Shown one piece after another: positions 4,320 to 34,291 of a DNA stretch of 64,000 bases. The DNA is from Zootoca vivipara (taxonomy: Eukaryota): positions 39,742,001-39,806,000 of the forward strand of contig NC_083279.1 of assembly GCF_963506605.1 (NCBI RefSeq), given 5' to 3'. The stretch's first letter is position 1. Every line of letters starts with the position of its first letter. Made by a program: the position numbers and the translations under genes. The notes under the pieces were generated by a model. The model was not told the DNA's origin and ran no database searches. It saw only the letters and a list, made by a program, of their open reading frames with translations.

Positions 4320-5322
4320 CCAGCCATTTTGACATACAGGTGACCAAATGGCTTTGGCAAAACATTTCCTCGACATATATATCTATGCCATATATATATT
4401 TGTAACTTGTGTGTATGGTGTGTTCACATACAGACTGGGGCAGACCAACCTTATCATCAGATTTTATTTTTTTAAACTACCACATATTGGGACCCCTATA
4501 GAAAGACTCCTCCCTGCATCCTCCACACAATCAGGGCACCCATATGACCTGTTGAATGGAACCTCTGCATATGAAGAGGAGGATTTCATATGTCAACTTT
4601 GGTATACTGATAACTCTACACAACATGTGTAGCCTCGCCATACGTCAGGAAAATTCCTGACATGTCTTGTTTTTTGGGTGTAAAGATGGCGTCGGGGGAA
4701 TTTTGCCAAAGTGGCAAAATGGCAGGGAAAATCCAGGTGTATGGCAATGTGCTGGAAAAAGCAGTGGAAACAGCTCAAAAAGCTTAAAATAAAATAAAAA
4801 GTTCAACCATTTGGGGTTGTCCCCCCCCCCCAATAATCTTTTTTAAAAAAACAAACAAACATTTTTTTGTAGGTGTCAGGAACCCCTGGTGTAGTTAATT
4901 GATACAACCATATATTTACTATACTGACTAATAAAACAAAGATATTAAAGTCTTAAAGCAAAACATTCTGGCTTTCTCCTTCAATTGCTCGAATGTGGAT
5001 ATTCAGGTCAGAGCAGCTGAAGAAGGCTAAGCCCAAACATTTTGCCTTAAGATCTCACTTGATCCCTCTGTCTTTCCATATCCATGCCATACATTTAAAG
5101 CACATTCAGAGTACCTGGCTTTCCTGAAAGAATCCTGAAAACTGTAGTATGTCAAGTGTGCTGGGAATTGTAGCTCTAGGCAAGGTAAACTACAGTTTCC
5201 AGGATTCTTTGGGGGAAGTCATGTGCTTTAAATGTATGCTGTGGGTGTGACCCCCCCCCATGTTTTTCTCCCACAGTGATTTATACTTTCAGGAAACAAA
5301 GTTATTTCTGTCCTAAACTAGT

Positions 5323-5513
5323 TACAGGTAGGTAGCCGTGTTGGTCTGCCGTAGTCGAAACAAAATTTAAAAAATCCTTCCAGTAGCACCTTAGAGACCA
5401 ACTAAGTTTGTCATTGGTATGAGTTTTCATGAGTATCTGAAGAATGAACACGAAAGCTCATACCAGTGACAAACTTAGTTGGTCTCTAAGGTGCTACTAG
5501 AAGGGGGGTTTTT
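5323..5513. mobile_element. Penelope-like element terminus with inverted (hairpin) structure
   Basis: ~48-bp inverted arms (5376-5423 / 5457-5504); 14-bp direct repeat TGTCCTAAACTAGT at 5309-5322 and 5514-5527; same family as the 23703 and 33584 copies. Confidence 0.75.
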
Positions 5514-8500
5514 TGTCCTAAACTAGTGAGACAGTGAAAAAATTGCCCAGTATGGTCCAGTATCTCTTTTAGTGAGATTAAAAAAGGTTAAAATTAGTTT
5601 TGACTGCCTCCTCAATTTTTTGTACAAATGCCTATTTAAATTACATTAAAATATGTGCATATCAAATTGGGCATGCTCATGTATTTGTCATAGTGGTTCT
5701 AGAAGGGTAGCCAAGTAAATATTAAGAGACATACATGGCAGTATTTTTCCCAGTTAGAAAGGAGAGGATTATCACATAGCTGCTGGACTTTTCTGCAGGG
5801 CACCCCCACCCGTACATGAATAATCTGGCTAATCAGAAGCTTATTGATTAGAAAGCAGTTTTTTAAACGGCTCACCAGCTTTCTTATGGCTAATGGGCAG
5901 AGTCGTTCTGGAATTTACATGTTCAAGCAGGCTTGCTAATTAGAAGATTCAAGCTGTTCCTATTTTCCTAAAGATTGAAAGTTACTCTTTCGTATATATT
6001 TCTCATCATTTTGTCTCTGAGCTTGATCTTTGTAGTGCTCCTCCTCCTGGCCTTTCTGACTAATTTTAAAGGTTTCATCCTGTGTGTGAGAGAGAGATTC
6101 AGTCAGTTATGCTAATATAGGGAGTTTTGCACAAGAAATATACTTCCATAGAATTTCCATTTGAACACATCATTCATCGAGTTCTTATATTATTATTTTG
6201 GTTTCGTATCATTGCCTTATATGTTCCTTTACTGATTCTGTTTGCACTCCTCAGTCTCCTCATTGGTACTAGCTTCTCTCAGATGTTTTGTGTACCCTTG
6301 CACATGTATGTTAGGGAATTTGCTTTTTCTGGATTTCCTGGATTTCCTCTGTAAGAGCAAGTGAGCAGTCTAGGGTACTCTTAGCATCCTAGCACTAGCA
6401 ATGGAGGCACAAATGGCGTCCATGATGTGGACTGCTTTCCCCCCAACTATGGCTGGTAGGTATGGCCATTCCTGGACAGGGATAGGCTTACCACAGTGAT
6501 CCATGCACTGGTAACATCAACAGGGGATTACTGTACAGTAATGTACTCTACATGAGTATTCATTGGAAGCTGGCCAAGAAGCTGCAGATTGTACCATATA
6601 TTACATCGGATATCTGATGGGAGTTGGAATCCAATAACATCTGGAGTACCACAGGTTCCTGAACCCTGATTTAAAGACATCCATGTCTCATAATAATTTA
6701 GGTTTCTTCATTCCATTTATTTATTTATTTTGCTTTTAATTACTATCCAAATTCACAAGGGCATTATTGATCTTCCCTTCCATAATCAGTTTGTTAAACT
6801 TCAGCTCTTGGTTTGTAACTTTTATATTCACTTAATATCTGCTAATGTTAATATTCATTAATGCATTTATTTTTCAAAATGTACTATTGCTAATTATGTT
6901 TGATGGATTGTTTTCACAAGATATAGGGCATGTTATTTCGCTGGTAGACATTTAAGCAAAATTAAAGTTTAATGAGTTTGATTAGCCAAGTAATCAATGA
7001 ACTAATCAATCTTAAATGCAACCTTCATTAGATCACCCAACTAATTTCACTTAAGTCAAAATTAATTTGGCTACTCTAAACAGTTAAATGACATTTGAAG
7101 ACCTATTACAAGAAATGAATCTCAGGATTTGATTTGTGAACCAGCTGAGCTGTAGGTGTGGATACCTGTCTGCATGTACCTATACAGTATTTCAAGAAAG
7201 CATTAAGGTACATTTTACTATATGCTCTTCCATTTTTAAACAGTACCTTTCCATAATGGAGTAATCTATTTACTATTACTGAAATCAACAGAGTGTGCAG
7301 AGGCAACATTCAGACGCTTACTGGTGGCATGCACAGACTCTGCGGATAACATGTAGCTTTGCTGAAAAATAGTCACTAATTAGCAAAAAAGAGAAGATTT
7401 TTAATGGAAAAAATCAGCAGAGCATGCATGATGTGTAATGCAGAGCTCACAGTTTCTGGCATGGTTTGTGCTTATCAGTTTGCCCCTGCTGCCCTGGCTG
7501 TTTCCCAAATGACACTTTATAAATTATTGTGATGATTAATAAGAATATAAAAATGTGGGTTATGATTTTCCAGTTGTAACTGAGATCCTGGTTGTGTAAA
7601 AGTGGGTTTACTCTAGGCAGTTTTCAGAATGGATTGAAGGGGATGCCTCTGAACTCCATCTCATTGTGCCCTAGATATTGCGTATTATGTACTTTGTGTT
7701 TTCATACTGTAAACCACTCTGTACTCTTTGGATGAGGGGTGGCATATAAATTTAATAAATAGTAATAATAATATTGGAAGTCCAGCATCAAAACAGCCAT
7801 TATGGATCCTTAGCTTACCACTAGCAGATGATGTGATGGCGACACTCTCTAAAATCCTCCAAAGAGCTGTGAGAGGAAACTCCTTAAAACGAAACCCACA
7901 GTGCCTAGACCTTAATATATATAGTTATTCTATTGGGTAAAAAAATGTATTTAGTTAGAATGGTAGTGTGCTGTGAAGCTGAGATACTGAACAGCACACA
8001 TGGCAGAAATAAAAATTCACACTTCCAGATAGGCTATGATTTAAAAATAAATCAATCAAGGAAGCCTGGCTCTCCACACTAGTATAATTAAATTGTTTTT
8101 ACAGCATAGAAATCAGCCTATTTGACAAGTTCCAAACAACCATAGACCATTAGAGATACTGTGATCCCCAGAATATAAGTTTCCGCAATTTGCCTGTCTC
8201 ATACATCAGTGCCAAAACAGGTGGCAAAGGCAGCAGGGGAACAACAGCCGGCAGATAGCAGATGGGCAGGCCAAAGGAACATGCTGCTTGTTGCTTCACT
8301 CGACATGAGTTACATTTAGTGTATCCCTTGAAATGATGCTGTAAGGAAAGTGCTGAAAGCCTCCCGTCCCAATAGGAGGATGTTCCATCAATTTTTAGAA
8401 ATGGCTCCATGTGTTTAATAAATGAATTATGGGATTATGGAGGCAAGGCTAGCTGGAGTCTTTGAAAAACAAATATGTGTGCATTGAAACAATCATCTCT

Positions 8501-23702: not shown

Positions 23703-23808
23703 TACAGGTAGGTAGCCGTGTTGGTCTGCCATAGTCGAAACAAAATAAAATTCCTTCCAGTAGCACCTTAGAGACCAACTAAGTTTGCCATTGGTATGAG
23801 CAAACTTG
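23703..23808 (-). mobile_element. Penelope-like terminus fragment
   Basis: TACAGGTAGGTAGCCGTGTTGGTCTG...GGTATGAGC, near-identical to the 5323 and 33584 copies. Confidence 0.7.
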
Positions 23809-32945: not shown

Positions 32946-33583
32946 TAATCAAACCATCTTTAGAATTTAGTTTTAGATTAGGACTACATTAGATTAGGAC
33001 TACTCATTAGTATATTGCCTATATTACCTAAGCTGCTCTATCCATCTGTTTGAAAGTGCCTGTTTTTTATTGGGCAGAAAGATTAGCAAATTCCAGACTC
33101 GGGGCCAAACATGGTTTGATGTTACAAGTAACTGTTTTCAGCTTCAAATAGCACCTGGTCAACTGATGTCAACTTGAGCCTCTTTTCAAATGCAATCAGC
33201 AGTTTTGTAGCTGCAATTCCTGTCAGGACCACAACTAGAATGGTGCAAGACTGATCCTGAGTGGGCCTGCAGCAGATGCTATTTGCAGTTTAAACAAACA
33301 AACAAACATTGTGACAGGAAATTACACAATTTAATGTTGTGTGCAGTTTAACCCTCAGTTACCAAAACCTCTTGCAAGGAAATGATGTTATTTCTTTGAA
33401 GGAAATGTGTCCCAAGGAAGAGTTCCACAACTTCCCGTTGTATTGATGGTTCCAGAGCTAGAATTTGGCACATCACACAGGAAATACGGGGGTGGGGGGG
33501 AGGGAATGTGATGGGTAATGGAACCAGAACAGAGCACTTCCTACTGTTTTGAGAAAGACTGGAAGGCAATCACAGAGAAGTGT

Positions 33584-33715
33584 GGTTACAGGTAGGTAGC
33601 CGTGTTGGTCTGGATCGAAGTAAAATAAAAAAAATTCCTTCAGTAGCACCTTAAAGACCAACTAAGTTTTTATTTTGGTATGAGCTTTCGTGTGCATGCA
33701 CACTTCTTCAGATAC
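33584..33715 (-). mobile_element. Short Penelope-like element terminus carrying a hammerhead motif
   Basis: 12-bp direct repeat ACAGAGAAGTGT at 33572-33583 and 33714-33725; internal AATAAA on the minus strand. Confidence 0.8.
33678..33715 (-). ncRNA. Minimal type I hammerhead ribozyme motif
   Basis: RNA GUAU-CUGAAGA-A-GUGUG(CAUG)CACAC-GAA-AGCU-C^AUAC: complete core, 5-bp stem II, palindromic AGCU in place of stem III, 4-bp stem I. Confidence 0.75.
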
Positions 33716-34155
33716 AGAGAAGTGTATATCTGTTGCTACGTGTTTGAAAAAGTGCCCAAGAACATGCCCGTGGGCAAACCAGTCATCACATTTAGCATTA
33801 TTACAGATATCCTGTCTTGGAAACATTCCTCTCTCTGTAGGCTTTTCCTGTCTTCATCGTTCACAATTGTCACAATGGCTCATTAAACTGACTGTTCACC
33901 ACTCCAGGCTCCCAGGATGTCTTTGTGCCCTTCTACTAAGAGTTGGAGGCTAAAACTGCTGAGGCACGTAGAACTCCAAGGGACAGATTTTTCTGTTTCA
34001 ATATGGCCAGAAGGGGGTCGGTTTCTTTTGACTTATAGAGCTTGCCAGAGGGGGGGGGGAGATATTCCTGGGAGGTTGCTAACTGGGCTTCTATCAGGAT
34101 GACAGAACTTCTCAACACCATCAAAACAGGGAGCATGAACCACCATGACTTAGAT

Positions 34156-34291
34156 CAGGCACCCCCAAACTGCGGCCCTCCAGATGTTTTGGCCTACAAC
34201 TCCCATGATCCCTAGCTAACAGGACCAGTGGTTGGGGAAGATGGGAATTGTAGTCCAAAACATCTGGAGGGCTGAAGTTTGGGGATGCCCG
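34156..34291. mobile_element. hAT MITE (136 bp)
   Basis: TIR CAGGCACCCCCAAACT / AGTTTGGGGATGCCCG; TSD ACTTAGAT on both sides. Confidence 0.9.

What the first reader, a model, noticed from the sequence alone, without database searches (positions are those of the whole stretch)
33584..33725. Intact minimal hammerhead ribozyme in a ~130-bp TSD-flanked Penelope-like insert
Seen: the minus strand reads GUAU CUGAAGA A GUGUG-CAUG-CACAC GAA AGCU C^AUAC, then AAUAAA and the element 3' end, all between 12-bp direct repeats. The insert's 5' boundary coincides with stem I. Known: Penelope-like elements carry minimal type I hammerheads whose stem III is a palindromic tetranucleotide and which work as dimers; an extra A between A9 and G10.1 is a tolerated natural variant. 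Inference: this short unit may be mobilised as a non-autonomous, retrozyme-like ribozyme element rather than being a random truncation. Predicted cleavage is between 33682 and 33681.
Basis: partly seen in the sequence, partly recalled or inferred. Interest (0 to 1): 0.7.

Follow-up and report, generated by a model that had tools for sequence, protein, structure and literature searches.

The report
Penelope leader copied to its cap
This 130-base insert is one of thousands of short copies of the front end of a Penelope-type jumping gene that sits intact elsewhere in the genome; many sister copies begin on the first base of its known minimal hammerhead motif behind an extra G, which likely marks the capped start of the gene's RNA, so the predicted ribozyme is likely a passenger and not a self-spreading unit.

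Summary
A complete minimal type I hammerhead motif (33715-33678, minus strand) lies between 12-bp direct repeats, with the cleavage site predicted as stated. The retrozyme reading does not hold. The insert matches, but for one T, the first 131 bases of the 137-base leader of a 3-kb Neptune-type Penelope-like element with intact 901-aa RT + GIY-YIG copies in this genome. The 39-base motif has 13,052 exact copies. Short copies share all variants with long ones. Of 100 listed copies starting exactly at stem I, 72 have G in front (23 of 100 at a control position), and a TATA-like box lies at -31 in five of six subfamilies. Best reading: reverse transcription primes about 100-130 bases into the capped, uncut RNA and runs off its start. 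Cleavage and the start site were not shown. The scan has reported this pattern before, in this genome and in others. I did not find it in the papers searched.

The parts
33572..33583 (+). Target-site duplication, copy at the element's 3' end
33584..33713 (-). 130-bp insert: 5' leader / pseudo-LTR end of a 3.03-kb Neptune-type Penelope-like element. With the 2-base microhomology it is the first 131 bases of the 137-base leader, ending 6 bases before the ORF start codon
   Evidence: 131 of 132 aligned columns identical to the leader of an intact copy in L174, one T-run gap; same against L064
33584..33621 (-). Optional 3' 'tail' (about 38 bp), between the two inferred reverse-transcription start points
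   Evidence: present in 52 of 100 sister copies, absent in 48; tail explained in PMC11167929 (parts 1-2 read)
33669..33674 (-). AAUAAA hexamer; probably not a poly(A) signal
   Evidence: replaced in subfamilies B2 and D; no poly(A) tail
33678..33715 (-). Minimal type I hammerhead motif; predicted cut between 33682 and 33681; activity untested
   Evidence: 13,052 exact copies of the 39-mer; 1 of 38 columns varies between subfamily consensuses, at N7
33690..33703 (-). Stem II, a perfect 14-base palindrome; frequent fold-back point in sister copies; predicted to allow a 14-bp intermolecular duplex
33662..33697 (-). 11-codon upstream ORF opening at the AUG in loop II (the only AUG in the leader); significance unknown
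   Evidence: position of the AUG; codons read from the sequence
33715..33715 (-). First G of stem I, the inferred transcription start (+1) of the parent element
   Evidence: inferred from the pile-up of 5' ends, the extra G and the TATA-like box at -31 in long copies
33714..33725 (+). Target-site duplication, copy at the element's 5' end; shares 2 bases with stem I

Best explanation
The insert is a TSD-flanked copy of the 5' leader of an intact Neptune-type Penelope-like retrotransposon, likely made when the element's own enzyme primed reverse transcription about 130 bases into its capped, uncut RNA and ran off the RNA's first base, which is likely the first G of hammerhead stem I. Shown here: the identity to the leader, the intact parent ORFs, the TSD, the pile-up of 5' ends at stem I, the G excess, the fixed TATA spacing, and the lack of pile-up at the cut site. 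Inferred: that this G is the transcription start, that the extra G is the copied cap, and that priming is internal as shown in vitro for the anole Poseidon element. On this model longer and full-length copies arise when priming happens in the downstream pseudo-LTR of a read-through RNA. The short copies lose the upstream promoter and are likely dead on arrival. The hammerhead is likely real and under selection in the parent, needs a second copy (and perhaps the element's protein) to cut, and is a passenger in this insert.
For: Parent: two 901-aa ORFs in L174 with RVT_1 (E 3.8e-12) and GIY-YIG (E 5.9e-5), both above Pfam cut-offs; 19 of 97 scored matches lie in open frames of 925 codons or more (97 of 9,737 candidates scored). 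Identity. Pile-up: 38 of 100 anchor-picked copies end in +20..-10. In the window's subfamily 31 of 100 reach furthest into +8..-1, 32 times the background rate; for host-joined copies alone 11 of 30, 33 times. Genome-wide, 3,248 of 13,512 pattern matches lack the element's T at -1. Extra G: 72 of 100 listed at position 0 (hand count) against 31% expected and 23 of 100 at +2 (hand count; Fisher p 4e-12); 60 of 88 after removing fold-back junctions that end in G by themselves. An extra G is described as the cap footprint of full-length L1 insertions (PMC11702581, passage). A TATA-like octamer starts at exactly -31 in subfamilies A-young, A-old, B1, C and D although 20 of 35 upstream columns vary. 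TATA plus Inr-like motifs were noted in a rotifer pLTR (PMC3846280, passage). Cut site: 2 of 100 ends at +30..+38, p 0.30; 283 non-C matches genome-wide, about 34 of 100 listed being true junctions. Uncut RNA is the dominant template in vitro and priming is internal at two sites (PMC11167929); 3' ends here are bimodal, 52 with tail and 48 without.
Against: No RNA evidence for the start site: three RNA-seq runs (about 6% of each read) show no read starts at position 0. The only start piles were 7 and 5 molecules at about -26 and -24 in one run, and 73-92% of reads run on into unrelated sequence. 10 of 54 copies that pass position -1 end at -2..-17, about 9 times background, which a single start does not explain. 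This copy has no extra G. Of 10 TSD-bearing copies starting at 0 behind a non-T base, G precedes in 6, but it is a lone non-target G in only 1, part of a short insert in 3 and part of the TSD in 2. Subfamily B2 had no match to the TATA pattern used (its TA run is one base shorter). The +8..-1 zone was chosen after seeing the data, four values were corrected by hand, one copy was measured against the wrong subfamily, and tandem or paired arms were counted separately, so the p-values are indicative. All sampled copies came from contig C1.
Confidence: 0.8

Rival explanations
1. Structure-driven stop: the RNA is longer, but once the cDNA has copied the whole motif it folds on itself (palindromic stem II, stem I) and lets go of the template or snaps back, so ends pile up at stem I without a transcription start there.
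For: Many copies are fold-backs turning in the motif; six or seven of 100 are perfect hairpins on the stem II palindrome; a few junctions join the stem I complement straight to the cut-site side; some ends lie at -2..-17.
Against: It does not predict a G excess at position 0 and not at +2, nor the fixed -31 TATA spacing. Host-joined copies without fold-back pile up equally (11 of 30). About half of all copies read through the same motif without stopping. It probably explains the +12 hairpins as a second effect.
Confidence: 0.12
2. One reading: a non-autonomous, retrozyme-like unit that is transcribed, self-cleaves as a dimer, perhaps circularises, and is mobilised in trans.
For: Intact core, clean TSD and non-random 5' ends. 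Animal retrozymes are proposed to derive from pLTRs (bioRxiv 10.64898/2026.07.22.740005, parts 1-3 of 5 read). Internally deleted tandem arrays with a hammerhead in each unit exist in this family (598-bp units in L061; 263-bp units in L166).
Against: Monomer, collinear with the parent leader. No shared private variants in 25 short against 40 long copies, and every common haplotype occurs in both classes. Ends are not at the cut site. The 598-bp deletion junction occurs at one locus only. There are no reads on this locus's flanks.
Confidence: 0.05
3. Ordinary random 5' truncation that happened to stop at stem I.
For: Microhomology at the 5' junction is typical of truncated insertions (PMC11702581, passage), and this copy has it.
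Against: The end rate in this zone is about 32 times background, so at most a few percent of copies ending here are expected to be random stops.
Confidence: 0.03

Closest known systems
Minimal type I hammerheads of metazoan PLE pseudo-LTRs (Cervera and de la Pena 2014, PMC4209133; parts 1-2 of 4 read)
   Same: Core boxes, unpaired base between 9 and 10.1, G10.1-C11.1 pair, 4-bp helix I, palindromic 15.2-16.2, position in the pLTR, mostly single dispersed copies; reported there in turtle and snakes.
   Different: Helix II is 5 bp with a self-complementary loop (7-8 bp in their Schistosoma examples). The motif is near-invariant in this genome, whereas they stress high variability. Its first base coincides with the inferred RNA start, which the parts read do not discuss.
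EN+ Penelope-like elements, Neptune/Nematis type (Craig et al. 2021, PMC8557442, passages)
   Same: Single ORF with RT then C-terminal GIY-YIG, CX4CX2C linker, partial tandems forming pLTRs, inverted 5' copies, optional 30-40-bp tail.
   Different: No tree was built, so Neptune versus Nematis is not resolved here.
Poseidon element of Anolis carolinensis, PAc (Frangieh et al. 2024, PMC11167929; parts 1-2 of 4 read, supplements not seen)
   Same: Hammerhead in the pLTR, two 3' end classes separated by the tail, uncut RNA as template.
   Different: Different clade (Zn linker here). In PAc the ORF starts in stem II and priming is inside the ORF; here the main AUG is 137 bases from stem I, copies end before it, and the AUG in loop II opens only an 11-codon uORF.
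Animal non-LTR retrozymes (Cervera and de la Pena 2020, PMC7229834, passages; Li et al. 2026 bioRxiv, parts 1-3 of 5)
   Same: Short, non-coding, type I hammerhead, related to pLTRs.
   Different: Those are tandem repeats of two or more units, expressed as circles cut at the ribozyme. This is a monomer whose boundaries ignore the cut site and that has no lineage of its own.
Full-length L1 insertions with an extra 5' G (PMC11702581, passage); retroviral strong-stop cDNA (recalled, no call)
   Same: Reverse transcriptase reaches the capped RNA end and leaves an extra G.
   Different: Here the run-off product is only 90-130 bases because priming is near the 5' end, and it is integrated as such.

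Membership tests
EN+ Penelope-like element (parent) | Single ORF with RT and C-terminal GIY-YIG | tested here: met
   901-aa ORFs; Pfam RVT_1 and GIY-YIG above cut-off
EN+ Penelope-like element (parent) | Tandem or partial-tandem copies giving pLTRs, direct or inverted | tested here: met
   motif repeats at 3,030-bp spacing in L174 and 3,000-bp in L064; 51 of 100 copies joined to an inverted copy
EN+ Penelope-like element (parent) | Optional 30-40-bp tail; TSD | tested here: met
   52 with tail, 48 without; TSDs of 9-15 bp
Neptune/Nematis type | CX2-5CxxC linker between RT and EN | tested here: met
   CX4CX2C read in the ORF; definition from PMC8557442 passages
Neptune clade | RT groups with Neptune in a tree | not tested
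   no named reference RTs were fetched
Minimal type I hammerhead of PLEs | CUGANGA and GAAA boxes, NUH triplet, stems I and II, base between 9 and 10.1, palindromic 15.2-16.2 | tested here: met
Minimal type I hammerhead of PLEs | Conservation or covariation beyond flanks | tested here: inconclusive
   1 of 38 columns varies (N7, the free position) against 20 of 35 upstream and 13 of 55 downstream, but many copies were picked through the motif; no compensatory changes among 122 descriptor hits
Minimal type I hammerhead of PLEs | Self-cleavage as a dimer | not testable with these tools
   needs an assay; 8 of 9 predicted Xenopus dimers did not cleave in the 2026 preprint
Hammerhead families in Rfam 15 | Match to a covariance model | tested here: not met
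Non-LTR retrozyme | Tandem repeat of two or more hammerhead-bearing units | tested here: not met
   single unit between TSDs
Non-LTR retrozyme | Unit defined by cleavage-to-cleavage RNA | tested here: not met
   ends cluster at stem I and not at the cut
Non-LTR retrozyme | Own amplifying lineage | tested here: not met
   no shared private variants in short copies (two samples of 100 copies from contig C1)
Non-LTR retrozyme | Abundant linear and circular RNA | tested here: inconclusive
   this locus's flanks have zero depth in three runs; family reads are mostly read-through; such libraries can lose short circles

The most novel reading that the evidence does not exclude
The element's RNA begins on the first base of its hammerhead, and Penelope-type enzymes routinely prime on their own leader and copy it to the cap, so the genome holds thousands of single-base records of the start site and of which RNA was used. 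These records say that capped, uncut RNA is the template in vivo and cut RNA almost never is. The ribozyme would then act as a self-decapping switch: cutting at +34 removes the cap and the loop II AUG, and can happen only when a second pseudo-LTR is present, which would also explain why the element needs tandems to make full-length copies.
Probability: 0.55. Interest if true: 0.6.

Novelty: new member of a known kind. Interest (0 to 1): 0.38.

Why it matters
The insert itself is ordinary: one of at least 13,000-20,000 copies of a known motif in a known class of element. What is useful is the family-level footprint. How Penelope-like elements copy themselves and what their hammerhead is for are open questions (PMC11167929, PMC4209133). 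If the pile-up marks the cap, start sites can be mapped from assemblies alone, the in vitro result that uncut RNA is the template gains in vivo support, and the need for tandem copies gets a simple explanation. It also warns that short TSD-flanked hammerhead inserts in reptile-type genomes should not be counted as retrozymes by default. The family has many identical intact ORFs, so it is a practical substrate for the tests.

Tried and rejected
A DNA similarity search of the own genome with the insert returned nothing because common words are skipped; exact patterns were used instead. Rfam gave no relevant hit. AAUAAA as a poly(A) signal was rejected. AAUAAA as the 3' strand of an extended stem I was considered; folding with 14 upstream bases did not extend the stem, so it was dropped. 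A splice acceptor at the 5' edge of stem I (an AG precedes it in most subfamilies, as with the D. virilis intron in PMC4209133) was rejected as the cause of the pile-up: the window's subfamily lacks the AG, and short copies share no common upstream exon. Stalling of RT at the ribozyme fold was rejected because it would stop copies on the 3' side of the motif. The descriptor scan for covarying relatives found only this family. The 598-bp tandem unit as a dispersed non-autonomous family was rejected (4 hits, one locus). The run search listed no RNA holder on record; three raw RNA runs of the same species label were laid instead and cannot show starts or cuts. The first TSD script found few TSDs and was redone. 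One search used the wrong ambiguity letter and serves only as a denominator (14,686). Nearest-neighbour energies for a double hammerhead (-12.7) against a stem II duplex (-32.2 kcal/mol) are crude and were not used as evidence. Lunse et al. (RNA Biol 14:1499) is not held and is known here only through a review passage (PMC6765202). PMC6431247 passages held nothing relevant; PMC2377424 passages describe a TATA-less internal promoter for D. virilis Penelope. No paper reporting the cap footprint in PLEs turned up; subscription papers and supplements (notably Fig. S2 of PMC11167929) were not seen and may bear on this.

Full report
1. Observation. A 12-bp direct repeat at 33572-33583 and 33714-33725 brackets a 130-bp insert and is the only direct repeat nearby. 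The first two bases of stem I fall inside the right-hand repeat, so the 5' junction is a microhomology. Rfam has no hammerhead match and the fold is not more stable than shuffles (z -1.06). The motif does have every feature listed for the minimal hammerheads of Penelope-like elements in PMC4209133.

2. Copy number and parent. The 39-base motif has 13,052 exact copies in the 1.44-Gb genome, a 24-base stretch downstream has 20,572, and the subfamily's tail has 2,462; reversed-pattern controls gave 0. The window holds two more, older copies. Locus L064 holds a 3.0-kb unit with a frameshifted ORF. A search with its C-terminal 431 aa scored 97 of 9,737 candidates; 19 lie in open frames of 925 codons or more. 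L174 has two 901-aa ORFs with RT and GIY-YIG domains above Pfam cut-offs and a CX4CX2C linker, the mark of the Neptune/Nematis type (PMC8557442 passages). The insert matches the first 131 bases of that element's 137-base leader with one extra T. That the host is a lizard comes from an earlier scan note and from recall; it was not tested.

3. Where copies end. I took the first 100 listed places of a pattern 3' of the motif, all on contig C1, and measured 5' ends against eight or nine references, with position 0 at the first G of stem I. 38 of 100 end in +20..-10, at 0.0126 per base against 0.005 or less in every other bin; among host-joined copies 13 of 35. A second sample of 100, picked by the window's own subfamily tail (11 places shared with the first), gave 31 with their furthest point in +8..-1, 32 times the background rate; 11 of 30 host-joined copies, 33 times. 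The cut-site zone +30..+38 held 2 of 100 (p 0.30) and 0 of 30. Caveats: the zone was chosen after seeing the data, four values were corrected by hand for palindrome over-extension, one copy belongs upstream to another subfamily, and tandem units were counted singly. Ten copies end at -2..-17, more than background, and six or seven are perfect hairpins on the stem II palindrome. Genome-wide, 3,248 matches lack the element's T at -1 against 10,264 that have it; 5 of the 100 listed look like point changes. At the cut site only 283 lack the element's C (about 14,700 have it), and about 34 of 100 listed are true junctions, so about 100 copies against about 3,000.

4. Why there. The base in front of position 0 is G in 72 of 100 listed (A 15, C 13; hand count), against 31% expected. 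At +2 it is G in 23 of 100 (Fisher p 4e-12), so it is not a general tailing habit. Twelve of the 72 come from fold-backs that end in G anyway; without them 60 of 88. At base level the picture is mixed: of 10 TSD-bearing copies, G precedes in 6, as a lone non-target base in 1, within a short insert in 3 and within the TSD in 2. An extra G is given as the cap footprint of full-length L1 copies (PMC11702581 passage). A TATA-like octamer starts at exactly -31 in five of six named subfamilies although 20 of 35 upstream columns differ; -31/-30 is the usual TATA position (established knowledge, no call). TATA and Inr-like motifs in a pLTR were noted in rotifers (PMC3846280 passage), whereas D. virilis Penelope has a TATA-less internal promoter (PMC2377424 passages). 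3' ends fall in two classes, 52 with the tail and 48 without, as expected from two internal priming sites shown in vitro for the anole element, where uncut RNA was the main template (PMC11167929).

5. Mechanism. Inferred: an upstream pLTR promoter starts a capped RNA on the first G of stem I. The protein nicks target DNA and primes at about +95 or +130. If it primes on the 5' leader it reaches the cap after 90-130 bases and the end is joined to the target, often by microhomology as here, or it snaps back. If it primes in the downstream pLTR of a read-through RNA, it makes the longer, randomly truncated and full-length copies. Short copies lack the TATA region. This locus shows zero depth on its unique flanks in three RNA runs (about 6% of each read). 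Family reads are abundant but 73-92% run on into unrelated sequence, the ORF start is nearly uncovered, and no read starts or ends pile at position 0 or the cut. These libraries cannot confirm or exclude the start site.

6. The ribozyme. Between subfamily consensuses 1 of 38 columns varies, at the free position N7, against 33 of 90 flank columns (p 2e-5), which suggests selection in the parent. The sample was partly picked through the motif, and there is no covariation. Activity is untested. Published minimal motifs did not cut as monomers and cut weakly as dimers, the anole motif needed protein, and 8 of 9 predicted Xenopus dimers did not cut. A cut at +34 would remove the cap and the only upstream AUG.

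7. Retrozyme test. Retrozymes are tandem units processed cut-to-cut into circles (PMC7229834 passages; 2026 preprint). This insert is a monomer, keeps the part 5' of the cut, and has no lineage of its own: all common haplotypes occur in short and long copies, and 25 short and 40 long copies of the subfamily share no recurrent variant over 86 bases. Tandem deleted arrays exist, but the 598-bp junction is confined to one locus.

8. Verdict. A real but ordinary copy of a known motif in a known class: new member of a known kind. The family-level cap footprint is the interesting part. I did not find it in print, but subscription papers, Lunse et al. and supplements were not seen. The scan has reported the same pattern in this genome (e1-9556134) and in at least seven windows of other genomes; those notes are unreviewed and are not counted as evidence. 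My run-off reading was stated, and the G test was sent in the same turn, before any note was seen. Interest 0.38.

Noticed in passing
window 5307-5519: Older-subfamily fold-back insertion: two inverted arms between direct repeats of about 14 bp; one arm starts at the first G of stem I and has a 7-base deletion in stem II.
   Followed up: partly
window 23703-23801: Older-subfamily copy truncated inside the motif near stem III.
   Followed up: partly
window 34151-34289: Another abundant short repeat with internal inverted similarity, heavily covered by multi-mapping RNA reads; family not identified.
   Followed up: no
L061 3321-5742 (G000:C1 about 2,777,300-2,779,740): Four head-to-tail 598-bp units, each an internally deleted element with promoter region and hammerhead; the junction is unique to this locus. 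It fits the tandem definition of a non-LTR retrozyme and is a natural substrate for a dimer cleavage test.
   Followed up: partly
L166 3286-3872: 263-bp tandem (2.2 copies) of a more deeply deleted unit that keeps the TATA region and motif; dispersal not tested.
   Followed up: partly
L174; one search list: Many intact, identical ORFs, often in tandem or head-to-head pairs: the subfamily is very young and probably still active.
   Followed up: partly
window 33697-33662, minus strand: The AUG in loop II opens an 11-codon upstream ORF, the only AUG in the leader; in the anole Poseidon element the main ORF starts in stem II.
   Followed up: no
sister copies: A shoulder of 5' ends at -2..-17 in the youngest subfamily, unexplained; possibly minor upstream starts.
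   Followed up: partly
L064 6450-6575: One RNA run (X22) has several hundred-fold depth over the ORF end and 3' UTR, mostly from one strand, while the ORF start is nearly uncovered in all three runs.
   Followed up: no
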